A program made the translations under genes and the position numbers. From NCBI GenBank assembly GCA_001769835.1, contig MEPR01000039.1:56101-120100 (forward strand): a stretch of DNA of 64,000 bases, read 5' to 3'. This DNA comes from Bdellovibrionales bacterium GWB1_55_8. Lineage in GTDB: Bacteria; Bdellovibrionota; UBA1018. A model generated the notes under the pieces. The model had not been told where the DNA came from, did no database searches, and was given only the letters and a program-made list of their open reading frames with translations. Below are positions 32,511 through 51,162 of the stretch, one piece after another (within the stretch, counting starts at the first letter, position 1; each line of letters starts with the position of its first letter).

Positions 32511-32609
32511 GTCTAAGATCAATTCTGATCTTGAGGCTCACCGCCCGCTAGACTGAATGTTTTGCCGCATGAAGGGGCACCACTGCTGCCGAGTGGAAAA
32601 AAGTGCCGA

Positions 32610-33173
32610 TCAGAGTGCGCGGCTCTTCAAGCCCGGCGGCCCCACTCCGTTTGAAATGACTTGAAACGGATCCCAGCTCCCGGACCAGAGTCCTTTCGAT
32701 TCAAGGAAATTCTTTGTAAAATACTCGGTTACGCGTTTGAACTCGTGGCCCCAACTTATAATCCTGGAATAAAGAGTACGGTCCCAGAACCTGCCCTTCG
32801 CGTTCGTCTTGCGGGCTCCCATGATCTGAAAGGCCAGCGCTCCTGAAAACTCCCTGAGGAAGCCCTGAAAATTCCGCTTCGCGGAAACGAAGCCCTTCGC
32901 GTCTGCTTTCACGAGCAAATGCAGGTGATTTCCCACGTTTACAGATCGATACACGCGGATCCTGTAGCGCCGGGCGCAGTCGGCCAACAGGTGTTCGAAC
33001 AATTTTGCATTCTCGCGGGTCAGAAGAGACCACTTCCCTTGCGCGCGGCTGGACCGCAGGACGAGATAGATCGGGTGCTTATGGCTGAACGGACGAGCCA
33101 CCTTTCTTCGCCCCTGACGTACCCCTCCCCCATGCTCGAGACGAAGGGATGGCAGAAATGAAGCCTGTTTCAT
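32610..33173 (-). CDS. tnpA: IS200/IS605-family Y1 HUH transposase (TnpA/RAYT-like)
   Basis: HUH motif NHLHLLVKA plus a C-terminal RAYT-like FWDRTLYSRIISWGHEF (catalytic Tyr region). Start at MKQASFLP (33173). The ORF-track start at 33284 would read through the upstream palindrome. Confidence 0.75.
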   Translation of the reverse strand: MKQASFLPSLRLEHGGGVRQGRRKVARPFSHKHPIYLVLRSSRAQGKWSLLTRENAKLFEHLLADCARRYRIRVYRSVNVGNHLHLLVKADAKGFVSAKRNFQGFLREFSGALAFQIMGARKTNAKGRFWDRTLYSRIISWGHEFKRVTEYFTKNFLESKGLWSGSWDPFQVISNGVGPPGLKSRAL

Positions 33174-33174
33174 G

Positions 33175-33192
33175 ACCGGATATATATCCGGT
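33175..33192 (-). promoter_or_regulatory. 18-bp perfect palindrome ACCGGATATATATCCGGT, 2 nt upstream of the tnpA ATG. Likely the IS200-type left-end hairpin, which would occlude the RBS.
   Basis: Seen directly in the sequence. IS200 elements carry such hairpins, serving as TnpA recognition sites and translational repressors. Confidence 0.5.
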
Positions 33193-33376
33193 TCAGTTAA
33201 CCGTGTAAAGACGTTTGTTACGGGTGAACGCTGGGGCAATGGTATTTTGATCGTACAAACACTGATGGAAACAAGGTCTGTCACATCTATTCTGCTAACT
33301 GACCCTGGATTTTTCTCGACCTTGTCAAAGCGCCATGAAAGCCGATGCTGTCGCGGAGCCTTTCAATAGGTAAGCT

Positions 33377-33577
33377 TCAGTTTTTGCGATCACATAAGTC
33401 TTGAGCATTCGGCTCATTTTTTCGGCAGACATTATCGATCGTGTCCCAGCAACCACCCGAGTCCAGACACGAGTCCTGCTTCATCCACGTACATGCATTC
33501 AGAGCAGATACCAGGAGCAAGCATGCTGAGATCAGCATCATCGAGAAAAGCCGTCCGTTCGCCCTACTCCGGGTCAT
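33377..33577 (-). CDS. Small secreted Cys-rich lipoprotein, 66 aa with 7 Cys
   Basis: Signal peptide plus lipobox (LLVSALNAC), then a Cys-rich mature peptide CTWMKQDSCLDSGGCWDTIDNVCRKNEPNAQDLCDRKN. Overlaps the start of the upstream kinase gene by 4 nt. Confidence 0.4.
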   Translation of the reverse strand: MTRSRANGRLFSMMLISACLLLVSALNACTWMKQDSCLDSGGCWDTIDNVCRKNEPNAQDLCDRKN

Positions 33578-34071
33578 TCAAAGGCCTTCTTCTTGATCAG
33601 ATCAGCGATCTCGTCCGGACTCATGTTGTCGGTCTTGATCTCAAACCCAAGCGCACCGTTCAAAAATCTTCCTCTCTGATTTCGTTCCACTTCCTGGGTT
33701 TCAGAAACTTCCCTCTCGGCTTGCGGTCGTCCACGTTTCAGAATCCGAGCGGAGAGACTCCGAGTTTCAGCTGAAAGATAGAACACACGGGCAGGCTCGC
33801 CCACTCTCTGAATGAAATCTTCCATCAGGTCAGGACTCAAAAACAGGCTATCGAATACGATCGTCCTTGCGCCCAGGCGGCGATAAGCGCTGATCAGATC
33901 ACAGGCGACATTCAAGGCAAGTTTCTGTCGCGACTGCGTGGCAATCAAATTATCCGAAACGAACCCGAGAACGTCGCCTTCAATATACGCGGCATCGTCC
34001 AACTGGCATAGCAGAGTCCTTGCCACCCAGGTTTTTCCAACGCCCACGGTGCCGTTTACGATGATGAGCAT
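33574..34071 (-). CDS. Small P-loop kinase (AAA_33/gluconokinase-sized NTP-binding protein)
   Basis: 165 aa with Walker A NGTVGVGKT at residues 6-14 and a Walker B-like hydrophobic strand plus D (IVFDSLF). Confidence 0.55.
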   Translation of the reverse strand: MLIIVNGTVGVGKTWVARTLLCQLDDAAYIEGDVLGFVSDNLIATQSRQKLALNVACDLISAYRRLGARTIVFDSLFLSPDLMEDFIQRVGEPARVFYLSAETRSLSARILKRGRPQAEREVSETQEVERNQRGRFLNGALGFEIKTDNMSPDEIADLIKKKAFE

Positions 34072-34197
34072 GTCTCAATCGTAAGTAGCGGCAGCCCGCC
34101 CGTCGAGCTAAAAAATACCGGAGCTCCATGCGAAAACATCGAAGTAAGAATCGCCGATGTCTTCGCATGAAGTTCCGGGTTCGAATTCACTGCAGTC

Positions 34198-34653
34198 CTA
34201 TTCGGACTTCTGTTGTACACATCTGATGTTCTGCTGATCGACTGTTTCAATGAACTCATCCACAAGGTCTTCGAGGTGTGAAACGATCTTGTGCCGAAGG
34301 TCAGGAGTGTCATCGAAGTACCTTACTTTTTTCCCTCGATCAGAAAGCGTGCTGAATACCGTCACGCCATTCGATTTCACGGCCTTAAGCCAGATTCTGT
34401 TCCTGAAAAAACTGGCACAAGACACCACGCCGCACTTTGCAAGCCCGGTCCACCCTGTGTAGTAATCCGTCTCAAGGAATATATGAGCAGGCACTCCCTG
34501 CGGCACCACATGATAGCCCTTCGTTAACAAGTGTTGCTGAGCCCATGTGTCATCGGTTGAGATCGTGCAGTTTAACGATGGACCGTCTTTCGCGTACGCT
34601 GATGAGACCGCGACCAAGCAGATTCCAACGATAGCCATAATTTTGCCGTTCAT
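34198..34653 (-). CDS. Hypothetical secreted protein
   Basis: Signal peptide MNGKIMAIVGICLVAVSSAYA. 4 Cys in the mature part. Low local GC. Confidence 0.4.
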   Translation of the reverse strand: MNGKIMAIVGICLVAVSSAYAKDGPSLNCTISTDDTWAQQHLLTKGYHVVPQGVPAHIFLETDYYTGWTGLAKCGVVSCASFFRNRIWLKAVKSNGVTVFSTLSDRGKKVRYFDDTPDLRHKIVSHLEDLVDEFIETVDQQNIRCVQQKSE

Positions 34654-34888
34654 ATGTTCTCCATTTTCTTCTTCCGGTTCAGCCCGGAAGCGAAAACGAG
34701 AATACGCCGCAATAGTCCAGGTCTCCGCTGACATCCTCTGACGTAAAGTAACATACGGAATTCACGAAAGAATCGCGATTCCTGCCGACCCTGCTCTACT
34801 TCGGCGCACCCTTGAAATTATCGGCCGGCTATGAGCATATGGCCCTCGTCGACTTGCACAATTCCAAACTTTTAGCGTCTCTATCGAG

Positions 34889-36268
34889 GTGATCCGGATG
34901 AGAGCTTTGTTCATCACACTTCCATTTCTGTTCATCGGCATAAACTCGGCCACTGCCGATGTTCTTCCGATTCAGGCAAACTACGTTTCGACGCGGGCCC
35001 AGGAAGGAATCATGTCTTTCGACCATTTCGTCGAGTTCAACGCGGATGCGAGGCAATCCGACACGGCACTTCAGGGCTGGGCGCGGCAGGCGATTGAAAA
35101 GCAGCTCATGTTTCTGATCGGTTCAATGAGGTGGCACTTCTCCGTTCCGAAGGGCGATCACAAAATCACGGAGCTGCGCCTTGCCCCGAAAAGCGCACAG
35201 GGTGTGACGATGATCGCCTCTTACCATTACGAGGGAACCGTTCAGATCCGCGAGGACGTACCCCTTCCGCTCAGGCTCGTGCTTCCGAATAACCCCTATC
35301 GGTTTTACTGGGACGGTCTCGTGCGAGATGGCTTCAAAATAAGCGCGCCTTGCACGCAGAAGCATTATCGTTGGCCGAGCGACCTGTTTTATTTCTGGCA
35401 CCCTTACGCTCCCGCGTGTCCATGGAAACGCGGCGAGGACTACCAGGAGATCCAGCCTGAAATCGTTTTAAAAAATAACGACGAAACGACCTATCCGGAA
35501 TACGACCGGCTTGTCGACCCCGCCACCCGTACGATCTCGATGTGGATACTTGTCGGACCTGCCAGCAACAAATCCATGAATCCGATGACCTCTCCTGATA
35601 TCAATGCGCAGACTTTCTGTGAATTCCGGGAACATTTCCTGCGTAAGGGATTTTCTTCACGGCGTTGGACCTCCAAAGAAATCCGCAGGAAGGGGAACAC
35701 CCTCTTCGCGAAACTCCCTTGGGTCGAGGATTTCGAAAAACAAGGCGCCCGATCCCGTATCCTGATCCACGCATTCTATGGCCATACCGCGGTGAAGGAT
35801 TTCAGCCGCGCTTTTTACCACTTTCTTGAGGACGGGGTCGAGAACGCCTCAATGGTGGTGTACGCAGGACATGCAGGATTGGGCAAAACCCTTGCACCTT
35901 CCGTAGCGGAAAAGATCGGGCTACTCAGGATGCGACCCAATCGGGATCGCTACCAGATCTATTTCTTCAACGGATGCAGCACTTACGCTTATTACACGCA
36001 ACCCTACTTCACGCGTAAAGCGAGCGCTTTGGATCCAGAAGGCACAAAGAACCTCGACATCATCACAACCGGCCTGGCCACAGGCGAGGACTTCCTCGGG
36101 AGTAGTTCACTCGCCGCGATCGATGCTGTGACGGACTGGGCTGATGGCGGTGCTGCCGCAAGTTATCAGGAAATCCTGAAACGCGCAGGTGGTTCCAATT
36201 TGCTGAGCGTCAGCGGAGATGAAGACAATCCGTCATCTCCGCAAAAACCCTTCCAAACGCGCGATTAA
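34889..36268 (+). CDS. Secreted protein with a putative clan-CD (caspase/clostripain/gingipain-like) cysteine peptidase His-Cys dyad
   Basis: Signal peptide (LFITLPFLFIGINSATA). The C-terminal half has a hydrophobic strand plus GH (MVVYAGHAGLG) followed ~40 aa later by a hydrophobic strand plus xC (QIYFFNGCSTYAYY), the arrangement typical of CD-clan peptidases. Confidence 0.4.
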   Translation: MIRMRALFITLPFLFIGINSATADVLPIQANYVSTRAQEGIMSFDHFVEFNADARQSDTALQGWARQAIEKQLMFLIGSMRWHFSVPKGDHKITELRLAPKSAQGVTMIASYHYEGTVQIREDVPLPLRLVLPNNPYRFYWDGLVRDGFKISAPCTQKHYRWPSDLFYFWHPYAPACPWKRGEDYQEIQPEIVLKNNDETTYPEYDRLVDPATRTISMWILVGPASNKSMNPMTSPDINAQTFCEFREHFLRKGFSSRRWTSKEIRRKGNTLFAKLPWVEDFEKQGARSRILIHAFYGHTAVKDFSRAFYHFLEDGVENASMVVYAGHAGLGKTLAPSVAEKIGLLRMRPNRDRYQIYFFNGCSTYAYYTQPYFTRKASALDPEGTKNLDIITTGLATGEDFLGSSSLAAIDAVTDWADGGAAASYQEILKRAGGSNLLSVSGDEDNPSSPQKPFQTRD

Positions 36269-38455
36269 CAGGTCTAAAATCGAAATTCTATCCTTTGAGA
36301 CTGGCTCCCCGATTCTCCCCTTTTCGAGTTCCGCAAGCTCCCGCGCCTTCAATGTACGAACCGCCTGCTCGGCTTTCGATCGATCGCTGGCAAGCGCCGC
36401 TTCAGCGGACTTGGCAAGAGCCGTATCCGATTGGATCAATTCCTTTTCCCGTCTGAGCTCATCGTCTGAAGGCACCCGCCTTGTTCTGAATTCTGGTTCT
36501 GCGGGAAGTGTAAGTTCCACTTTACTCAGCCAGACGTCAGAAGGAGCACCGGTTCTCGCAGAAGGAGCGAGACAACTTGGGTCTGCGGAGAAAATATTGA
36601 AACTCAGGAAACTTCGATCGGGGGAAAGCGACATCTGAACGTCCAGCTTCGCGTCCCGATGTGATGCAAGCCACAGGGATTTCGGTGTTCTTGAGAAAGA
36701 CGATTTGCAGTTCCTGAATTGAATGGTGCCACTCCACGAGTCAGGTTTGATGGTCAGATCAGCACTGAAATCGCGGCGCGATACCTGGACCTTCACCACA
36801 CCAGCAGCGGCATCGCAGTTCACCTTGAGTTTCACATCAGCAAATTTTTGGCCGTTCGGAACTTCCCCGGCGGAAGCATAATGGGCGATCTCCGGCTTCT
36901 TCGGATCAAAGTCGCGTCTCTCAATCCGCACCTTCTTGGGATGTCCTTTTTTATCGAAAAGGTCAGGATCAGAACAGTAGAGCCTGTAAATCTCTTTCGC
37001 ATCGCGAGATTTCAGACCCCGCGATTTTATGAGATCCGGGAAACGCATACCGGCGGTTTGGATGACTCCGGAAATATCCTCGATCGACTCCGCGCGAATG
37101 ACACCGCCCCCTTCTTTTCGGATAGCCAGATAGACGTTCCCTAGCGAGTCTTTGATTCCGGTTTCCTTGCACCCAACATGACTGCGGTAGAGGCTGAAAT
37201 ACGGGGAGTTATAGTAACCCTCCTTCGCTATACCGCCGACATCACCACCGCCGCCTTTGCCGACATCACCACCGCCGCCTTTGCCGACATCACCACCGCC
37301 GCCTTTGCCGACATCACCACCGCCGCCTTTGCCGACATCACCACTGAACCTCAGTCCAGATGACGAATCCACAAACGGACTCGGACACACGGATTGAAAC
37401 CGTTCCGTAGTAGCGCCGACACGAAAAGTGATCTCGGGCGTGCCCACAGCTCCACCTGGTGTTTGTGTCACCGTCCGGTCGTAGTAATACGGAGACCCTT
37501 CTGCTTTCGAGACATCAAGCCCATTCATGAGCCCTGGAAGGGCCTCATTGATGGTCTCGATCGGAACCGCGACGGACTGGGTTTCGTTCAAGAACGTCTT
37601 CAGAAGTATTCCAGAGAGGAAAGTTTTCGATTCGAAGATCTCACTGGTTCCGCTTCGGGGTACCAAAACGGTGTAAATAATCGGACTGCCACTCATGCCT
37701 GGCCGGACACCCTGCTTCGGCAATAGGACTGCGCTCCTACTCCCGATAAGCGGATGCTCTGCAGCTTGGGTCGCGAGCTCGATTTGCACGGGAAAACGAT
37801 TGGGGATCACCTTCAATCCATCTTCAGTCACTCGTGCGAGATGCAGATTTTCCCGATTGACGAAATCCGCCGCTGTTTGGATGTAATGGCTGCCTTCTGG
37901 CAGCCAGTTTTCGCGATTAATGGGAAGCAGGTGGCGAACTTCAGCCACGGGCAGTTTGAAACCATCCCAAACAAATAAGGGCGTCAGGTCCGAAACAATC
38001 TTCTCTAATTCCAGGACCGCGAGATCCTTCGTCTGGCTGATACCGCGAACTTTTGCCTGAACAACTTTCCCCCCGCAGCGGACCTGGACCTTTTCGGCGC
38101 CTGCGACCACGTGTGCGGCGGTCAAAACGAACAGATGTTTTGGTTCATTGGCCGATTTAAAGACAGAGCCTTGCCCAATCGAGGACAGCGAGTCTTTACC
38201 GGACTGCCTCTGCCCCTCGATCTCGACTACTTCGCACCGGTCCAGAACCGGGGCGTTGTTCGCGATTCGATCCAGCCATCTCACCAGCTCCGGCTCAAGG
38301 AGCGCCTCGCCTGACAAGCCACTATTGCAACAAGGGTCCGCAGTCACTGGCGAAGATGAGCCAGACAAAGCCATTGCAGGGATCATCGATCCCGCGACGC
38401 CGAAGAGAATAGTGAGCACTCGCAGTGGAAAACTGCACATCGTTCGTTTATTCAT
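36233..38455 (-). CDS. Large secreted trypsin-like (S1 family) serine protease with an internal (GDVGKGGG)n tandem repeat and a C-terminal coiled coil
   Basis: Signal peptide MNKRTMCSFPLRVLTILFGVAGSMIPAMA. Catalytic His (VLTAAHVVAG), Asp (KDLAVLEL) and Ser (GMSGSPII) in S1 order. Repeats GDVGKGGG ×4.5, then …ELRREKELIQSDTALAKSAEAALASDRSKAEQAVRTLKARELAELEK. Start chosen at the signal-peptide Met. Confidence 0.6.
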   Translation of the reverse strand: MNKRTMCSFPLRVLTILFGVAGSMIPAMALSGSSSPVTADPCCNSGLSGEALLEPELVRWLDRIANNAPVLDRCEVVEIEGQRQSGKDSLSSIGQGSVFKSANEPKHLFVLTAAHVVAGAEKVQVRCGGKVVQAKVRGISQTKDLAVLELEKIVSDLTPLFVWDGFKLPVAEVRHLLPINRENWLPEGSHYIQTAADFVNRENLHLARVTEDGLKVIPNRFPVQIELATQAAEHPLIGSRSAVLLPKQGVRPGMSGSPIIYTVLVPRSGTSEIFESKTFLSGILLKTFLNETQSVAVPIETINEALPGLMNGLDVSKAEGSPYYYDRTVTQTPGGAVGTPEITFRVGATTERFQSVCPSPFVDSSSGLRFSGDVGKGGGGDVGKGGGGDVGKGGGGDVGKGGGGDVGGIAKEGYYNSPYFSLYRSHVGCKETGIKDSLGNVYLAIRKEGGGVIRAESIEDISGVIQTAGMRFPDLIKSRGLKSRDAKEIYRLYCSDPDLFDKKGHPKKVRIERRDFDPKKPEIAHYASAGEVPNGQKFADVKLKVNCDAAAGVVKVQVSRRDFSADLTIKPDSWSGTIQFRNCKSSFSRTPKSLWLASHRDAKLDVQMSLSPDRSFLSFNIFSADPSCLAPSARTGAPSDVWLSKVELTLPAEPEFRTRRVPSDDELRREKELIQSDTALAKSAEAALASDRSKAEQAVRTLKARELAELEKGRIGEPVSKDRISILDLLIARLEGFLRR
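37222..37345. repeat. Perfect 24-bp tandem repeat (GACATCACCACCGCCGCCTTTGCC) ×4, plus one partial copy at each end (about 5.3 copies), in-frame within the S1 protease gene
   Basis: Seen directly: …gccgacatcaccaccgccgcctttgcc ×4 …gacatcaccactgaa. Encodes GDVGKGGG units on the minus strand. Confidence 0.9.
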
Positions 38456-38534
38456 CGGCATAACCTGGTGACTTCCTAAGTATTCTTTGTCTGCTTGCCG
38501 ATAAGAGTCCTGGAGGGCTCCCGGGAGCTGCGTC

Positions 38535-39728
38535 ATGAAACATAAATACGGCTCTACTGCTCTGAACAAGAGCCCAACACTGAGGAGCAGCGAACTTTCG
38601 GCGATCTACTACTCGCTGGTCGAGATGATCTTGCAAGGCCGCTATGAAGCAACGGCGGAAGCCCTGAACCAACTTCGTCGTGGAAGCCCGTTCACGCATG
38701 ACGATAACGAAGCTATTCGCAGATTGATTGCCGCGCGCCTCGCGATAAAACAAGGCGATGCTGGTGAGGACACATCCTGGCTGGATATTCCAGTTCCGGA
38801 GAATTCCTGGCTTGCTGCTGAAAAGGAAATTGTAAAAGGTCATTGGGAGTATCACCTGCAGAACTTTCCGATGGGCATCACGCACTTTAAGGAGGCGGAG
38901 CGCCAATTCAAAAACCTGGGAATGCTCGATCGGGAGTTCCTCAGCGCTTTCAATCAAATCATCGGCGAAGTCAGTGGCCCCTCTCAGCTCCCCCCCCTTC
39001 AGCAGATCGATCAGCTTCGGCAGTTGGAGATCCGAGTCCGACAGCACCTCGAGAAAGTGGGCTGCGTGCGAGTTCAGGCGCTGATTCATCGACAAAAATC
39101 TCACGCATTTGAGGACCTGACCCTGTTCCACGCGGCGGTGGAAGAGATATCAAAAGCGATACAAATACTGGAGCTTCACGGGCCAGCCTCGGACTATCAA
39201 CTGGCCCTGCTTCAGGCTGCCGACCTGAGCCTGGATTTAGGTGACCAGTTCCGGGGTCGCACCTTTTTCGAATACGTCATTCCACCGCTCGATAAGAGAG
39301 TTGAATTTCCTCATGCCTACATAGCCTGGCGATTGGGCGGACCGCTTCCCGAGCAATCCAATTTTGAAATCCTGCCCGGCGGATGGAAGGAAAAGTTCGA
39401 GAAATTGAGAGCATCCCTCACTCCCGATAACAGTACTCCTCACGAATGGACCTGGAATCTCACCTCAGGTGAGATTCAAAGCCCTGAGCTTCTCAAACCC
39501 ATTCAACTCAAACCAGCAAGCCTGGAAGGGCGCCTCGTACAGATGTTGACCCGCAACAAGGCAACGAAGAACCTTCTAATTGAATCTTTCTGGCCCGGGC
39601 AAAGCGACAGACAGTTACTGGACAACCGCCTGCACAGGATGATCTCCCGCTTGAACAAAAAGTTGTCGAACCTCATCGAGTTTGACGGGAAAAGTTATCG
39701 TCTCAAGCGGCGATTACGGACTAAATGA
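38535..39728 (+). CDS. Atypical transcriptional regulator: N-terminal helical/TPR-like domain and C-terminal OmpR/PhoB-type winged-helix DNA-binding domain, with no receiver domain
   Basis: C-terminus …LEGRLVQMLTRNKATKNLLIESFWPGQSDRQLLDNRLHRMISRLNKKLSNLIEFDGKSYRLK matches the trans_reg_C pattern (LT..E..LL..L…vWg…..ld..i.rLRkKL…i.tvrg.GY.L). Divergently transcribed from the protease gene. Confidence 0.5.
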   Translation: MKHKYGSTALNKSPTLRSSELSAIYYSLVEMILQGRYEATAEALNQLRRGSPFTHDDNEAIRRLIAARLAIKQGDAGEDTSWLDIPVPENSWLAAEKEIVKGHWEYHLQNFPMGITHFKEAERQFKNLGMLDREFLSAFNQIIGEVSGPSQLPPLQQIDQLRQLEIRVRQHLEKVGCVRVQALIHRQKSHAFEDLTLFHAAVEEISKAIQILELHGPASDYQLALLQAADLSLDLGDQFRGRTFFEYVIPPLDKRVEFPHAYIAWRLGGPLPEQSNFEILPGGWKEKFEKLRASLTPDNSTPHEWTWNLTSGEIQSPELLKPIQLKPASLEGRLVQMLTRNKATKNLLIESFWPGQSDRQLLDNRLHRMISRLNKKLSNLIEFDGKSYRLKRRLRTK

Positions 39729-39799
39729 AAGAAATGCCGCCACTCTTCTTCTCGAAGAGGGCGGCATTCTCATGAACGGCTAAATAAACTCCTAGAGCA

Positions 39800-40642
39800 T
39801 CAAAGGACTGAGTCGGAACCCGGAACGCTGACACCCGCTTTGGTGAAATAGGCCTGAAAATCAGCTTCAGAGACTTCCTCGCCGTTGATTTCATACTTGG
39901 TTTCTGTTCCATCGAAGGACTGTTTCAACTCCGCCGAAAAATCCGCATACTCAAGTTTGAGGGCCACGGAGCCGCTGCCATCGGCCTCTGTGCTGCTGAA
40001 TTCCATTTCCACATCGGCTTGCAGTTCGAATTTCACATCACCCTTGGTCTGCGAGTGGACATCGCCCTTAACCTCGCCCTCGATCACGATCGAACCACCG
40101 CTCGTGGAGGTCGTTGCTTTGACTGCGATCTCGCCCGAAAGGTCGAACTTGTCGACATCGTTCAGCTTGCGGAATTCGTCGTCTTTCACTTCGTATTTCA
40201 GCGTGGCGGCGACCTTGGCTTCCGTTTCGCTGCCTGAGCCCTTCATTTCGATATTCATCGAAATCGGGCAGGACACATCAGGCTTGTCGGAAACCTGAAT
40301 TTTGATATTGAAGCTGGTGGCGCTCGTCGAAACAGGTACCGAATAGTCCACCTGACAAAGTTCGTCTGCCAGCTTCTCCTGCATTTCAATGGTGGTGGGA
40401 TCCGTCGTGAGCGCTGCCGAACGTGATCCAGCCGTGCCACTGAGAAAGGACAGCGCATGGAACCGGTTCACAACAGGAAGGGCGAGCGTTGCCGGCGCGC
40501 CAGGAACCGATTGATGAGTGCGGCCCGCGCTTTCGATTGTTGCCGACACGATGGCCTTCTGCTCATCTGTCAGCTTCTTTTGTCCACAACCAGTCACGAC
40601 GAGTGCCATCAGCACGGATACAAGCACAAATGCGTTTCTCAT
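39800..40642 (-). CDS. Hypothetical lipoprotein
   Basis: Lipobox LMALVVTGC. S/T/E/K-rich repetitive beta-rich mature domain. Confidence 0.5.
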   Translation of the reverse strand: MRNAFVLVSVLMALVVTGCGQKKLTDEQKAIVSATIESAGRTHQSVPGAPATLALPVVNRFHALSFLSGTAGSRSAALTTDPTTIEMQEKLADELCQVDYSVPVSTSATSFNIKIQVSDKPDVSCPISMNIEMKGSGSETEAKVAATLKYEVKDDEFRKLNDVDKFDLSGEIAVKATTSTSGGSIVIEGEVKGDVHSQTKGDVKFELQADVEMEFSSTEADGSGSVALKLEYADFSAELKQSFDGTETKYEINGEEVSEADFQAYFTKAGVSVPGSDSVL

Positions 40643-40803
40643 GAGATCTCCTTTTATTTGCAGGGATCATAAGGAAGGAAACGCAAATTCACAAGCTGAC
40701 GCTTCAGCGAAAGACGCATTCGCCTTACGTCTTATTCTGAAGTTATTCAGTTGACAGCCTTGAGCCGTAACCACTCACGGATGACAGTGGATGGATTCCC
40801 TGC

Positions 40804-47413: not shown

Positions 47414-48373
47414 CTAAACCTGAATCCCGACCCCGCGATATTCGGCGAGCTTGTTCCGCAAGGTGCGGATCGAAATGCCAAGCGCCTTCGCGGTGTGCGT
47501 GCGATTGCCCGAATGATACGTCAACGCCTGCAGAATCACGTTTCGCTCGATATCGTTCAACGTCTGGCCCGGTTCCCAGTTGCGTTCGACAGCGTCTGCC
47601 ATCTGAGCCGCCGCCATATTCGGCCTGCGCTCGATATGGATATCGCGAGCCAGGATGCCTTCCACACCGGCCGTGATCACCGCGCGCTCGATCACATTCT
47701 CGAGTTCGCGGATATTGCCGGGCCAGGAGTGCGACTCAAGAACCGAAAGGGCTTCGGGTGCGAAACCGCTCAAAGTCTTTCCGTTCTTCTCGGCGTAATA
47801 GGCCATGAAGTTGTTGGAAAGGATCCGCACATCTCCGATCCGTTCGCGAAGCGGTGGCAAAGTCAAATTCACCACGTTCAGGCGGTAAAAAAGGTCTTCG
47901 CGGAAAGAACCCTCACGAACGCAATCCGAAAGATTGCGATTCGTTGTTGCAATGATCCGCACATCCACCGCGATGGGCTTGCGCCCGCCGATCCGGTCCA
48001 CCTCGCCCTGCTGAAGAACACGCAAAAGTTTCGCCTGAAGACGGATATCCATCTCCGAAATTTCATCCAGGAGCAGCGTTCCGCCATTGGCGAACTCGAA
48101 ACGCCCGGCCTTGCTGGAAACCGCGCCCGTGAAAGCGCCGCGTTCATAGCCAAAGAGCTCCGATTCGAGCAGATTCTCGGGGATAGCCGCGCAGTTGATC
48201 GCAACAAAGGGTTTGTTGGCGCGTGTGCTGTGCTCGTGAACCAGACTGGCCACAAGCTCCTTTCCCGTGCCGCTCTCGCCCTGGATCAGTACGGTTGCCT
48301 TGCTCTGGGCCACCGTCCGAGCCAATTGAATCACCTCGCTCATTCTGCGATCCGCAGTGATGATTTCCGTCAT
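47414..48373 (-). CDS. Sigma-54-dependent transcriptional activator (AAA+ EBP plus Fis-type HTH) with no N-terminal regulatory or receiver domain
   Basis: Walker A GESGTGKE, GAFTGA motif, ESELFGYE, an R-finger region and a C-terminal HTH (…RTHTAKALGISIRTLRNKL…). The protein starts only ~20 aa before Walker A. Confidence 0.8.
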   Translation of the reverse strand: MTEIITADRRMSEVIQLARTVAQSKATVLIQGESGTGKELVASLVHEHSTRANKPFVAINCAAIPENLLESELFGYERGAFTGAVSSKAGRFEFANGGTLLLDEISEMDIRLQAKLLRVLQQGEVDRIGGRKPIAVDVRIIATTNRNLSDCVREGSFREDLFYRLNVVNLTLPPLRERIGDVRILSNNFMAYYAEKNGKTLSGFAPEALSVLESHSWPGNIRELENVIERAVITAGVEGILARDIHIERRPNMAAAQMADAVERNWEPGQTLNDIERNVILQALTYHSGNRTHTAKALGISIRTLRNKLAEYRGVGIQV

Positions 48374-51162
48374 TGTCCGCCCTCCTTGGCGTCTCTCTTC
48401 GTGTCATTTGCCAGCGTTTCTGCCGCAAGTTTCTTCCAGAACCCGTCTCCGGCGCCGCTGGCGAGCTTCCTCATCGCCGTCCGGCCCTTTTCAACTTCGA
48501 CTTTCGTCCCTGTCTTCAGTAACGCACGAGCGTTACCGAAAACCGCACGATCGCCGCTCCAACCTTTTTCAATTGCCTTCTCGTACGCGACGGCCGCTTC
48601 GGACCACCGCCCCAGCTTTTCCAAGGCTCCTGCTTCGGCGATCACCAGTGCTTCCAGTGAAGGAGCAGGAGCAAGTCCCAGGGATGATGCCACCACGCTG
48701 CTTTCGCCCCCGGCCCCCTGAATCCTGCCGATCTTCTGCTCAAGGGCGCGAAGGAGCTCAAGCGCCATACGGGAATCTCCGCCTCCGACTTGAAGCATGG
48801 CCACATGGGCCTCGAGCCTGAGCGCGAGGTCACGATCCTTCGCAGCGCTTTCAGGCGCGAGCACCTGGGCTTTTGCCGCATGCGCGAGGGCCGCCGTAAA
48901 ATTCCCTTCACGTTCCTCGAGCAGGGAGAGAATCACGTATTTCTCAAATGAGTAACGGGACTCGTCGGTCACGCCAGCCAGGAGATTCCGGATTTCCGAC
49001 GCCGCGGCTGCCGGAATTTTCGAACTCGCGCCATTTTGGGAAACCCAATTCGCCTTGGCACGCGCGAAGCGCTGCTCGGATGCCCTCGCCTGCTCCTCGA
49101 GATCGTCCGCAGCCTGCTCGGCCGCGATCATCCGTCCGCCATTGCGGGGCGACTTCGAAACAGATTTGTCGTAGAGTTCGGCGAGCTCCTTGCCGACACT
49201 TCCCAGGCCCAGATCGGAACCCGCTCTTGAAAGCGCCAGAAGATAATCAAAGTCGTTTCCAGAATCCTTCAGGAGCATTTCCTTCCGCTCATGATAAAAC
49301 GCGAGCGCTTCATATTTTTTTCCATTCTCCAGCAGCTGCAGAATGGTTTTCCTGAACAGGAAATTCACGATCTTTCCCAGGTAAGGCTGGGCGGCCGAGT
49401 TCGCCGGTTGCGCAAGCTCGCGAAGAGCCAGAGTCACCGCCTGATCATCATGTCCCAGGGTGACAAGCGCGCGGACCTGCGAAAGCGCTTTGAAAGTTCC
49501 ATAGCGCTTCATTTGAATCTCACCCGCACCATCGAAACGCGCGGCATCCTCCCTGAAAAAGCGCTCCATGCCCGCGAGGTCGAACCCTCCCTGATCACCA
49601 CAGGGCACGAGCCTCATGCGAGCCAGCGTCGCCCCCGGGCTGAACGGAAAACGGTTGATCGTTTCATTAAACCAGTGCCGGGATTCGGCGCGTGCCTGCT
49701 CCCCGCCTTTTCTTCCGCTGATCTCGCCCAGTCGGAACGCCGCCCTCCAGCCGGAAGGATGTCCTGGATGTTTTTCGAGAAACTGCGAGAAAGCGTCCTT
49801 GGCCCGGTCATACTGGCCAAGCTGATAGAGAGCTTCCGCACGATTCACAAAAACAGAGGGAAATCCCTTCACCTGTTCCTGAAAGTGACTCAAAGACTCG
49901 TAATAGGAGGCCAGCGCCTGCTCGTATTGGAAGCGGTCCATATACAGATCGCCGACGCGGATCGCGGCTTCCGCCTTGTCGGAATCAGATGGCGCGTTTT
50001 CGATGACCCACTGATACTCTTTGGCCGCGCGCTCGGTCTGCTTCAGGAGATACAGCGACTCGGCCGCCCCAAGGTGAAACACCCAGTTCAGGGAATGTTT
50101 GGGGTGGCGGTTGGCCAGCCAGAAGAAACTCTCCATGGCTGCCAGATGTGAACCCTTTTGAAAACGGCTGTTGGCCAGGAACATGGCCGAATGCAGACCG
50201 ACCGGAGAATCCTTCGCGTCGATCACAAGCTGGCTCAAAATCTCGTCCGACTCACCGGAAAGCCCGAGCTTCACGAGTGCGCTCGCCTTGAGAAGCCGCA
50301 TTTCATACCGGAATTCCGAACCAGGGTGCTCTCGTTCAAAAAACTCGAGCGTCCGGACAGTCAGAGCAGGCTTTCCCTGCTTATAGAGTTCGAGCGCCAA
50401 CCGGACGTACTGTGCGTCTCGCGTTTTCGCCTCGGGAATGAAATAGGAATAATTCTCATCCGGCACCTTTGCGGAGAACCAACGGCCAAAATCAATCTTC
50501 TCGTGGAACGGCAGGAAAGAAAGGAAAACGTCCGTGGAATCCTTCAAGGGTTCGGCACAGAAACCCTGGACAGCACTCTCGGCTTCCTGTCGCGTTTTCT
50601 GGCTCGCGAGCCTCCTGTCTGCCCGCTGCTTGGATTCCATTCGCGCTTTCGACTCAGCCTGGGCCTTCTTCACCCGCGCCCGGGCGGATTCCACTTCCGA
50701 GACCGTCGGGCCCGACTTCCACCAGAAGTCGACCACATAGCGGGGGGCCTTCTCCCGATATTCGAACGTCTCCATGGCCGGAACAGCCGGGGCGTTTCGC
50801 CCGATCGGGTACTTCCATTGACCCCGAATGAGAACCCCACTGGCGGTTTCCTCAAAGCTCAGCCCGGCAAGACGGGGGTCGGCAGCAGCCCGGAAATTCG
50901 CTTTCCACTCTTCTTGCTGGCCGCTCGGCACGCCCAGATCGGTCAATGCGATCCCTTTGAGCAGGATCTCAAAACCCCGGCTGCCATTCTTCCACTCAAC
51001 AGGCACGCTTTCGTCCACGGAAAGGGCCAGGCGGCCATGTGTCTTGAAGGTCTGAATTCTAAGCGCTTCGGCGGAAGCATACGGGGCTGCCAGGGCGGCG
51101 CCCAAGGGAAGAAGGATTCCCATCAGAAGAAGGTCACGGACCGTATTTGGCTTGAGCATCAT
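48370..51162 (-). CDS. Large secreted TPR-repeat protein, 930 aa
   Basis: Signal peptide MMLKPNTVRDLLLMGILLPLGAALAAPYASA. Multiple TPR-like A/L/Y-rich helical repeats. A 4-nt overlap with the downstream EBP gene suggests an operon. Confidence 0.55.
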   Translation of the reverse strand: MMLKPNTVRDLLLMGILLPLGAALAAPYASAEALRIQTFKTHGRLALSVDESVPVEWKNGSRGFEILLKGIALTDLGVPSGQQEEWKANFRAAADPRLAGLSFEETASGVLIRGQWKYPIGRNAPAVPAMETFEYREKAPRYVVDFWWKSGPTVSEVESARARVKKAQAESKARMESKQRADRRLASQKTRQEAESAVQGFCAEPLKDSTDVFLSFLPFHEKIDFGRWFSAKVPDENYSYFIPEAKTRDAQYVRLALELYKQGKPALTVRTLEFFEREHPGSEFRYEMRLLKASALVKLGLSGESDEILSQLVIDAKDSPVGLHSAMFLANSRFQKGSHLAAMESFFWLANRHPKHSLNWVFHLGAAESLYLLKQTERAAKEYQWVIENAPSDSDKAEAAIRVGDLYMDRFQYEQALASYYESLSHFQEQVKGFPSVFVNRAEALYQLGQYDRAKDAFSQFLEKHPGHPSGWRAAFRLGEISGRKGGEQARAESRHWFNETINRFPFSPGATLARMRLVPCGDQGGFDLAGMERFFREDAARFDGAGEIQMKRYGTFKALSQVRALVTLGHDDQAVTLALRELAQPANSAAQPYLGKIVNFLFRKTILQLLENGKKYEALAFYHERKEMLLKDSGNDFDYLLALSRAGSDLGLGSVGKELAELYDKSVSKSPRNGGRMIAAEQAADDLEEQARASEQRFARAKANWVSQNGASSKIPAAAASEIRNLLAGVTDESRYSFEKYVILSLLEEREGNFTAALAHAAKAQVLAPESAAKDRDLALRLEAHVAMLQVGGGDSRMALELLRALEQKIGRIQGAGGESSVVASSLGLAPAPSLEALVIAEAGALEKLGRWSEAAVAYEKAIEKGWSGDRAVFGNARALLKTGTKVEVEKGRTAMRKLASGAGDGFWKKLAAETLANDTKRDAKEGGQ

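What the first reader, a model, noticed from the sequence alone, without database searches (positions are those of the whole stretch)
38535..39728. Regulator with an OmpR/PhoB winged-helix domain at the C-terminus but no receiver domain
The last ~100 aa match the trans_reg_C winged-helix pattern closely (LTRNKATKNLLIESFWPGQSDRQLLDNRLHRMISRLNKKLSNLIEFDGKSYRLK). The first ~290 aa are all-helical and TPR-like, with no REC domain, and no sensor kinase gene is nearby. The gene is divergent from the protease gene, so it is a candidate dedicated regulator of the module. An N-terminal helical sensor joined to a C-terminal wHTH is not standard OmpR, SARP or CadC.
Basis: partly seen in the sequence, partly recalled or inferred. 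Interest (0 to 1): 0.5.

Follow-up and report, generated by a model that had tools for sequence, protein, structure and literature searches.

The report
TPR–winged-helix regulator beside secreted protease
This gene encodes an unannotated type of one-protein sensor-regulator from predatory Bdellovibrio-like bacteria, with a TPR sensor domain fused to an OmpR-type DNA-binding domain and no phosphorylation domain, and it almost always sits next to a secreted serine protease gene that it probably controls.

Summary
The ORF at 38535-39728 (+), 397 aa, is real. It is a hypothetical protein of Bdellovibrionales bacterium GWB1_55_8. Three other lines show the domain call is still right.

- **Profile search:** a family profile finds PhoB-family and ToxR DNA-binding domains best in the PDB.
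- **Relatives:** Trans_reg_C is the only Pfam family that recurs among relatives' C-termini.

Residues 14-295 form a TPR solenoid with no strands. Its closest structures are the peptide receptors Rap and NprR, and MalT domain III. There is no receiver domain, and no histidine kinase among the ORFs tested at 24-54 kb.

The protein belongs to an uncharacterised family of about 520 clusters at 50% identity. All seven genome-collection hits are Bdellovibrionota MAGs.

The main new result is the gene pairing. In 11 of 16 independent loci, down to about 25% identity, the regulator abuts a secreted trypsin-like protease with a Gly/Asp-rich repeat. The pair is divergent here and translationally coupled elsewhere.

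Best reading: a ligand-gated one-component transcription factor dedicated to that protease. Regulation and ligand are inferred, not shown.

Verdict: a new variant of a known kind, of moderate interest.

The parts
38535..39728 (+). Regulator CDS, 397 aa plus stop codon: TPR sensor domain fused to an OmpR/PhoB-type winged helix
   Evidence: ORF. Identical to an NCBI hypothetical protein. The family has 520 cluster representatives. Full-length model pLDDT 87.
38574..39419 (+). TPR solenoid, residues about 14-295 (13 helices): the presumed ligand- or partner-binding sensor domain
39441..39725 (+). OmpR/PhoB-type winged-helix DNA-binding domain, residues about 303-397
39609..39662 (+). Predicted recognition helix alpha3, residues 359-376 (RQLLDNRLHRMISRLNKK), the most conserved stretch of the family
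   Evidence: Helix 359-376 in the model. R372 is invariant, and R365 and K376 are at least 90% conserved over 100 relatives. It aligns in register with the TRLRKK helix of a PhoB-family regulator.
36233..38461 (-). Partner gene: secreted trypsin-like (S1/Trypsin_2) serine protease. The likely start is ATG 38461 or 38455. It has a signal peptide and the motifs TAAHV, DLAVL and GMSGSP.
   Evidence: ORF. Trypsin_2 E 4.9e-6, and HtrA/MarP-type NCBIfam hits. Homologues lie next to regulator homologues in 11 of 16 loci, with a conserved catalytic triad and signal peptides.
37235..37344 (-). Perfect 24-nt tandem repeat, 4.6 copies, encoding the Gly-rich octapeptide repeat GDVGKGGG inside the protease
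   Evidence: Tandem Repeats Finder: 100% matches. Gly/Asp-rich repeats of other periods sit at the same place in partner proteases.
38462..38534 (.). Shared divergent intergenic region, the presumed promoter/operator region
   Evidence: Sequence. No sigma-70 consensus match.
38496..38505 (+). Candidate operator half-site TGCCGATAAG. It forms a 7-nt inverted repeat with ATCGGCA at 38454-38460, 35 nt away. Low confidence.
   Evidence: Inverted repeat. A YCGATA(A/C) motif lies upstream of the regulator in all 5 divergent-type loci. However, 26% of shuffles give some 8-mer in 5 of 5 sequences.
38517..38528 (.). Perfect 12-nt palindrome GCTCCCGGGAGC overlapping the regulator's ribosome-binding site
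   Evidence: Conservation in other loci was not tested.

Best explanation
The gene encodes a cytoplasmic one-component transcription factor.

Its N-terminal TPR solenoid, about six helix pairs, is the sensor. It most likely binds a peptide, a protein segment or a small ligand in its concave groove, as Rap, NprR and MalT domain III do.

A short flexible linker (residues 296-304, low pLDDT) joins it to a C-terminal OmpR/PhoB-type winged helix. That domain binds DNA through the highly conserved recognition helix DNRLHR(L/M)ISRLNKK and the C-terminal wing.

No phosphorylation is involved, because there is no receiver domain and no partner kinase.

Its principal target is the adjacent gene for a secreted trypsin-like serine protease with a Gly/Asp-rich repeat, and probably its own gene. 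In this genome both would be served from the shared 73-nt divergent intergenic region. In most relatives the two genes form a translationally coupled, autoregulated operon.

What is shown: the domain folds, the absence of REC, the family, and the conserved gene pairing. What is inferred: DNA binding, the target, and the nature of the ligand.
For: - **Sequence profile:** the family profile hits a PhoB-family regulator at E 0.0049 and ToxR at 0.014, in register over alpha1 to alpha3.
- **Pfam on relatives:** Trans_reg_C is the only recurrent Pfam family on relatives' C-termini, 11 of 51.
- **Hallmark residues:** positions conserved over 100 relatives are E331 in alpha1; R365, R372 and K376 in alpha3; and Y388 in the wing.
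- **Family size:** 520 cluster representatives, nearly all 350-420 aa with both domains.
- **Gene pair:** conserved in 11 of 16 independent loci at 25-61% regulator identity. It occurs in three arrangements: divergent; protease then regulator; regulator then protease with overlapping or abutting stop and start codons.
- **Partner proteases:** they keep a signal peptide and the His/Asp/Ser triad.
- **No kinase:** none among the ORFs tested at 24-54 kb.
Against: - Pfam and NCBIfam give no hit for this protein itself.
- No DNA-binding or expression data exist.
- No operator motif is shared across 13 loci beyond shuffle expectation. The YCGATAA candidate in the five closest loci is statistically weak.
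- No sigma-70 promoter match was found in the intergenic region.
- Four of 16 loci lack the protease neighbour. One of these has a histidine kinase and a sigma-54 response regulator directly downstream instead.
- Similarity of the TPR domain to Rap/NprR is only slightly above that to generic eukaryotic TPR proteins. The ligand class is therefore open.
Confidence: 0.6

Rival explanations
1. A peptide-sensing switch analogous to RRNPP quorum sensing. Peptides made outside the cytoplasm by the partner protease, from a precursor or from prey proteins, are imported and bind the TPR groove. This switches the winged helix on or off, giving feedback on protease or predation genes.
For: The closest structures to the TPR domain are the peptide receptors Rap105, NprR, Rap pLS20, AimR, RapH/I and PlcR. 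Profile matches to NprR (E 1.2e-5 over residues 15-239) and RapH/I/J/F cover most of the domain. The pairing with a secreted protease is strict. Y25, R68, E96 and N140 in the TPR domain are nearly invariant.
Against: No conserved small pro-peptide gene is seen next to the receptor. Only 71 nt separate it from the next gene here, and downstream genes differ between loci. Generic TPR proteins (APPBP2, TONSOKU, LGN) score almost as well. MalT domain III, which binds a sugar, is also a top hit. No peptide transporter is linked.
Confidence: 0.12
2. Secretion or partner feedback. The TPR domain binds the not-yet-exported protease precursor, for example its Gly/Asp-rich repeat or pro-region. The logic is that of TPR chaperones that co-activate type III secretion genes (IpgC/MxiE, SicA/InvF), so transcription would report export status.
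For: Stop and start codons overlap or abut in both gene orders, which suggests stoichiometric co-production. The Gly/Asp-rich repeat is the one unusual feature shared by all partner proteases.
Against: The proteases carry ordinary N-terminal signal peptides and would leave the cytoplasm quickly. In the window's clade the genes are divergent, not coupled. There is no direct evidence of any interaction.
Confidence: 0.1
3. A SARP- or HilA-like activator with swapped domain order that controls other genes. Adjacency to the protease would reflect shared ancestry of an island rather than regulation.
Confidence: 0.1
4. A degenerate orphan response regulator whose receiver domain has diverged beyond recognition.
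For: The DNA-binding domain is C-terminal, as in OmpR-family response regulators.
Against: Residues 1-300 are entirely alpha-helical TPR with no beta strand, which is incompatible with the alpha/beta receiver fold. There is no Response_reg hit in the protein or in 100 relatives.
Confidence: 0.02

Closest known systems
OmpR/PhoB-family response regulators (PhoB, OmpR, KdpE, PmrA, VicR)
   Same: The DNA-binding domain has the same fold and sits at the C-terminus: an N-terminal beta-sheet, three helices and a wing. It keeps the LxxxE...L, W, RL.KK and G..Y signature positions.
   Different: There is no receiver domain, no phospho-acceptor Asp and no partner kinase. A TPR solenoid stands in place of the receiver. 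The sequence is too divergent for Pfam PF00486.
SARP regulators (AfsR, DnrI, EmbR) and HilA
   Different: In SARPs and HilA the winged helix is N-terminal and is followed by BTAD/TPR (own knowledge). Here the order is reversed, there is no BTAD signal, and the TPR domain resembles Rap/NprR/MalT rather than SARPs. The taxon is also different: Bdellovibrionota.
RRNPP(A) peptide receptors (Rap, NprR, PlcR, PrgX, AimR)
   Different: RRNPP regulators carry an N-terminal XRE-type HTH (Rap has a 3-helix bundle) and have an adjacent pro-peptide gene. They occur in Firmicutes and their phages and plasmids (PMC10075063, abstract; the domain details are own knowledge). Here the DNA-binding domain is a C-terminal OmpR-type winged helix, no pro-peptide gene is evident, and the conserved neighbour is a protease.
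MalT / LAL / STAND regulators
   Different: There is no NTPase (NOD) domain. The DNA-binding domain is OmpR-type, not LuxR-type.
ToxR / CadC / TcpP membrane one-component regulators
   Same: They have an OmpR-type winged helix without a receiver. ToxR, TcpP and CadC are among the best sequence and fold matches.
   Different: In those proteins the winged helix is N-terminal and is followed by a transmembrane helix and a periplasmic sensor (own knowledge). This protein's model has no long hydrophobic helix and places the DNA-binding domain at the C-terminus.

Membership tests
Trans_reg_C (PF00486) / OmpR-PhoB winged-helix superfamily | Pfam PF00486 HMM match above the gathering threshold | tested here: not met
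   No hit for the full protein at E<=1 or for residues 300-397 at E<=10. Among relatives, 3 of 100 full-length proteins and 11 of 51 C-terminal domains hit weakly, best E 3e-4.
Trans_reg_C (PF00486) / OmpR-PhoB winged-helix superfamily | Fold: N-terminal antiparallel sheet, alpha1-alpha2-alpha3 with alpha3 as the recognition helix, and a C-terminal beta-hairpin wing | tested here: met
Trans_reg_C (PF00486) / OmpR-PhoB winged-helix superfamily | Detectable sequence homology to solved members | tested here: inconclusive
   A profile of 51 C-terminal domains gives a PhoB-family regulator (5dcl) at E 0.0049, ToxR at 0.014, TcpP at 0.21, AdeR at 0.38 and MtrA at 2.2. The hits are coherent and in register, but borderline.
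OmpR-family response regulator (two-component system) | N-terminal receiver (REC) domain with a phospho-acceptor Asp | tested here: not met
   No Response_reg hit. Residues 1-300 are all-helical TPR.
OmpR-family response regulator (two-component system) | Cognate histidine kinase, usually adjacent | tested here: not met
   No HisKA/HATPase among the ORFs scanned at 24-54 kb. This is not an exhaustive scan of small ORFs.
SARP | N-terminal winged helix followed by a BTAD domain | tested here: not met
ToxR/CadC-like | N-terminal winged helix, a single transmembrane helix and a periplasmic sensor | tested here: not met
   The domain order is opposite, and the model shows a soluble TPR solenoid. 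No dedicated transmembrane predictor was run.
RRNPP(A) quorum-sensing receptors | TPR peptide-binding domain homologous to Rap/NprR/PlcR | tested here: inconclusive
RRNPP(A) quorum-sensing receptors | Adjacent small secreted pro-peptide gene | tested here: not met
   No room exists between flanking genes in the window, and no conserved small neighbour is seen across loci. A systematic small-ORF and signal-peptide screen was not run.
RRNPP(A) quorum-sensing receptors | N-terminal XRE-type HTH (or the Rap 3-helix bundle) as output domain | tested here: not met
   The output domain is a C-terminal OmpR-type winged helix.
MalT/LAL STAND regulators | P-loop NTPase (NOD) domain and a LuxR-type HTH | tested here: not met
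   No NTPase or GerE hit. The protein is only 397 aa.

The most novel reading that the evidence does not exclude
This family could be a Gram-negative, predator-specific counterpart of the Firmicute RRNPP peptide receptors. In this reading the TPR groove binds imported peptides generated by the co-encoded secreted protease. The peptides could be self-derived or released from prey proteins. Through an OmpR-type winged helix the receptor would then switch hydrolase and predation genes on. That would amount to a 'taste-the-prey' or quorum circuit in Bdellovibrionota, built from a receptor-protease pair instead of a receptor-propeptide pair.
Probability: 0.12. Interest if true: 0.75.

Novelty: new variant of a known kind. 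Interest (0 to 1): 0.45.

Why it matters
Gene regulation in Bdellovibrio-like predators is poorly understood, and their many secreted hydrolases are central to killing and digesting prey.

This work defines a sizeable family that current databases label only 'hypothetical' or 'TPR repeat protein'. It has about 520 clusters at 50% identity. The family is a phosphorylation-independent transcription factor with a domain order not described for OmpR-type regulators. It is tied to one specific class of secreted serine protease.

That gives three concrete handles: a candidate regulator-target pair to test, a candidate sensor domain whose ligand could report prey contact or digestion, and a gap in Pfam/NCBIfam coverage that a new model would close.

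If the TPR domain proves to bind peptides, RRNPP-style signalling logic would extend beyond Firmicutes.

Tried and rejected
- **Direct annotation:** Pfam and NCBIfam scans of the protein gave nothing.
- **PDB sequence searches:** single-sequence phmmer and the 13-sequence profile gave nothing significant. Only the larger profiles worked.
- **Second word-indexed homologue search:** run with the 100-sequence alignment, it hit the candidate cap and added nothing.
- **The search for related loci with the 100-sequence alignment:** it failed because no stretch was conserved enough. The 13-sequence alignment worked but used one narrow pattern, so the exclusively Bdellovibrionota result is a lower bound on distribution.
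- **AFDB fold library:** unavailable, so I could not ask whether any UniProt entry shares the whole two-domain architecture.
- **Operator search:** an exhaustive 8-mer search (1 mismatch, both strands) over 13 upstream regions found nothing above shuffles. The 5-locus YCGATAA motif is weak. No direct repeats occur in the intergenic region. There is no sigma-70 promoter match.
- **Anti-phage defence reading (TPR plus protease):** PADLOC gave only marginal trypsin-domain hits, so it was rejected.
- **Degenerate receiver domain:** rejected on the all-helical model.
- **Link to the flanking flagellar genes:** rejected, because no other locus has flagellar neighbours.
- **Literature:** four searches found no paper on this family or architecture.

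Full report

The window has an ATG-initiated ORF at 38535-39728 on the + strand, 397 aa long. A GGGAG ribosome-binding site lies 7 nt upstream of the ATG.

The protein is identical to NCBI 'hypothetical protein A2X94_06865' of the metagenome-assembled genome Bdellovibrionales bacterium GWB1_55_8.

Upstream on the opposite strand lies a long ORF. Its realistic start is ATG 38461 or 38455, preceded by AGGAAG. It encodes a 740-742-aa protein with a signal-peptide-like N-terminus and a Trypsin_2 match (E 4.9e-6), plus HtrA/MarP-type NCBIfam hits.

**2.

Pfam and NCBIfam return no family for the 397-aa protein at E<=1. The isolated C-terminal 98 residues give no Trans_reg_C hit even at E<=10. Single-sequence and small-profile searches of PDB sequences were also empty. 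By the finding's stated criterion ('no Trans_reg_C hit') it would be refuted.

Three independent lines overturn that.

- **Structure prediction, whole protein.** AlphaFold2 on a 13-sequence alignment gives mean pLDDT 87. Residues 305-396 form three short strands, helices 330-340, 345-352 and 359-376, and a C-terminal beta-hairpin.
- **Sequence profile.** A profile of the 51 C-terminal domains finds a PhoB-family regulator as its best PDB sequence match (E 0.0049). ToxR (0.014), TcpP, AdeR and MtrA follow. All are aligned in register: 'L..lE..Ll.lL' on alpha1, 'Sk..L...lW' on alpha2 and 'nRLh.lisRlnkKl' on the recognition helix.
- **Pfam on relatives.** Trans_reg_C is the only Pfam family that recurs when the 51 relatives' C-termini are scanned one by one (11 of 51, best E 3e-4).

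The hallmark positions are the most conserved in the whole family. R372 is invariant. E331, L338, L352, R365, K376 and Y388 are at least 90% conserved over 100 sequences.

So the domain is a divergent member of the OmpR/PhoB winged-helix superfamily that Pfam's model misses. 'Matches closely' was an overstatement. 'Is one' is well supported.

**3. The N-terminal 295 residues.**

The model has 13 helices and no strand between residues 14 and 295, which excludes a receiver fold.

- These are interleaved with generic eukaryotic TPR proteins: APPBP2 at 18.4 and TONSOKU at 18.2.
- Foldseek also ranks Rap proteins first, at weak E-values near 1e-3.

At sequence level the 100-member profile matches several groups:

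- consensus TPR proteins, at E 5e-32;
- NprR (1.2e-5, residues 15-239) and RapH (4e-5), both with long coverage;
- the PH0952 STAND TPR sensor (3.6e-5);
- RapI, Rap3T, RapJ and RapF.

TPR_2, TPR_12 and TPR_MalT hit 26, 21 and 16 of 100 relatives respectively.

The domain is thus a TPR sensor-type solenoid. Its closest known relatives are bacterial ligand-binding TPR sensors, but the margin over generic TPRs is small.

**4. It is a family.**

The word-indexed search found only 13 relatives. An exhaustive HMMER search with their profile found 520 representatives of 50%-identity clusters at E<=1e-3, of which 92 are at E<=1e-30. Almost all are 350-420 aa and match end to end.

Database names, where present, are 'hypothetical protein' or 'tetratricopeptide (TPR) repeat protein'. 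None of the first 13 had a precomputed Pfam domain.

A scan of one genome per GTDB species returned seven loci. All are from Bdellovibrionota MAGs: Bdellovibrionales, Bacteriovoracaceae and Pseudobdellovibrionaceae. The scan used one narrow peptide pattern, so this is a lower bound on distribution.

Four literature searches found nothing on this architecture or family.

**5. The conserved partner is the key new evidence.**

I compared 16 independent loci, not counting duplicate contigs. A homologue of the window's protease is the immediate neighbour of the regulator in 11 of them.

| Arrangement | Loci |
|---|---|
| Divergent, protease upstream of the regulator | window; L001 (=L002, L010); L013; L014; L016 |
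| Same strand, protease first, stop and start overlapping or abutting | L006; L007; L008; L018; L019 |
| Same strand, regulator first, 4-nt overlap | L004 |

A twelfth locus, L020, is a very distant regulator (E 1e-17). It has an abutting downstream 659-aa protein with about 20 GDGGGGL repeats and GASGS/TAHQ motifs. BLAST does not link that protein to the others, so I count it only as probable.

P0012's contig has an unknown 562-aa gene overlapping the regulator's start, but no DNA was available to test it.

The partner proteases share four features:

- an N-terminal signal peptide;
- the His, Asp and Ser motifs (TAAHV, DLA(V/L)L, GMSGSP);
- a Gly/Asp-rich low-complexity repeat at the same position;
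- a conserved C-terminal region.

Four loci lack the protease: L005/L011, L009, L015 and L017. L005 has a histidine kinase and a sigma-54 response regulator downstream instead.

Linkage that survives three different rearrangements, down to about 25% regulator identity, is strong comparative evidence for a functional pair. The window's other neighbours are not conserved partners: a 459-aa secreted protein, a 280-aa lipoprotein and an AAA_33 kinase.

**6. Mechanism.**

*Shown:* a soluble protein with a TPR sensor, a low-confidence linker (residues 297-302 below pLDDT 50; the residue 291-300 block averages 61) and an OmpR-type winged helix. It has no REC domain. No kinase was found among the ORFs scanned at 24-54 kb. 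It has a conserved secreted-protease partner.

*Inferred:* it binds DNA through alpha3 and the wing, controls the protease gene and probably its own, and is gated by something bound to the TPR groove.

The operator search was weak.

- The intergenic region holds a 7-nt inverted repeat, ATCGGCA (38454-38460) and TGCCGAT (38496-38502), 35 nt apart. It also holds a 12-nt palindrome, GCTCCCGGGAGC (38517-38528).
- A YCGATA(A/C) element occurs upstream of the regulator in all five divergent-type loci, with an inverted copy near the protease start in L014 and L016.
- However, 26% of shuffled sets also give some 8-mer in 5 of 5 sequences.
- No motif is shared by 13 loci beyond shuffles, and there is no sigma-70 consensus.

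I put 0.6 on the overall one-component-regulator-of-the-protease model. The sub-claims differ in strength: domain identities about 0.9, DNA-binding transcription factor about 0.75, the protease as target about 0.55.

**7. Rivals.**

- **RRNPP-like peptide sensing (0.12).** Peptides released by the partner protease would be the signal. This fits the structural neighbours and the pairing, but there is no pro-peptide gene and no transporter link.
- **Chaperone-like sensing of the unexported protease (0.10).** The TPR domain would bind the precursor, following IpgC/MxiE logic. This is suggested by translational coupling and the shared odd repeat, but the proteases carry ordinary signal peptides.
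- **SARP/HilA-like activator of other genes (0.10).** Adjacency would be incidental.
- **Degenerate response regulator (0.02).** Excluded by the all-helical N-terminus.
- **Anti-phage defence.** Checked and dropped.

**8. Comparison with known systems and novelty.**

The protein works like a SARP, HilA or ToxR-type phosphorylation-independent OmpR-class regulator, and like MalT or RRNPP in having a TPR sensor. It is a member of none of them.

- SARP, HilA and ToxR have the winged helix at the N-terminus.
- RRNPP uses an XRE-type HTH and a pro-peptide gene.
- MalT has an NTPase domain and a LuxR-type HTH.
- Response regulators have a REC domain.

To my knowledge (memory, not tested, because the AFDB library was unavailable), an N-terminal TPR sensor followed by a C-terminal OmpR-type winged helix has not been described as a regulator class. 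The pairing with a secreted S1 protease is new.

I therefore rate it a new variant of a known kind: known domain types, a new order, a new family, a new conserved partner and a restricted predatory phylum. Interest is moderate (0.45). It is a clean, testable lead for predator gene regulation and a gap in domain databases, but the biology is so far inferred only from sequence.

Noticed in passing
window 32600-40700: The regulator-protease pair lies in a block of about 8 kb that interrupts a flagellar gene cluster. fliM, flgE, flgD and fliK lie at 24.9-31.4 kb, and fliI, fliH, fliG and fliF at 40.8-45.8 kb, all on the minus strand. The block has lower G+C (0.52-0.54, against 0.55-0.59 in the flanks). 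At one edge is a weak IS200-like Y1_Tnp ORF (32613-33284, E 0.006). It may be an inserted island.
   Followed up: partly
window 37235-37344 (minus-strand gene): A perfect 24-nt tandem repeat, 4.6 copies at 100% identity, encodes GDVGKGGG repeats in the protease. Partner proteases elsewhere carry different Gly/Asp-rich repeats at the same position: DGGHWG in L004, GGDWADD in L007, and about 20 copies of GDGGGGL in L020. The tract looks rapidly evolving, and its role is unknown.
   Followed up: partly
L012 6869-7213: The sister MAG Bdellovibrionales bacterium GWA1_52_35 has only a 114-aa ORF. Its last 64 residues or so are 73% identical to the window's winged helix, and no TPR domain precedes it. 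It is either a truncated remnant or a stand-alone winged helix.
   Followed up: partly
window 34201-34734 (-) and L013 2093-2518: A small secreted protein in the window (true start probably MNGKIMAIV...) is 36% identical (E 9e-10) to the 141-aa gene immediately downstream of the regulator in L013. It may be a loosely linked third component.
   Followed up: no
L004 7154-7789 and L006 1970-2638: A Gly-rich, probably membrane-associated protein of about 215 aa flanks the regulator in two distant loci. The two copies are 41% identical (E 1e-48). It is divergent upstream in L004 and downstream in L006.
   Followed up: no
L005 9184-11816: In one protease-less locus the regulator homologue is followed directly by a HisKA/HATPase kinase and a sigma-54-dependent response regulator. 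It is preceded by a PLD-family protein. Some family members may be wired differently.
   Followed up: no
window 47417-51162 (-): A 319-aa sigma-54 activator sits next to a 930-aa TPR protein just beyond fliF. The activator has AAA+ and HTH_8 domains but no receiver domain. It may be a flagellar master regulator with an unusual partner.
   Followed up: no
window 34889-36268 (+): A 459-aa ORF with a signal-peptide-like N-terminus is convergent with the protease gene. It has no Pfam, NCBIfam or PADLOC hit and no homologue in any fetched locus.
   Followed up: partly
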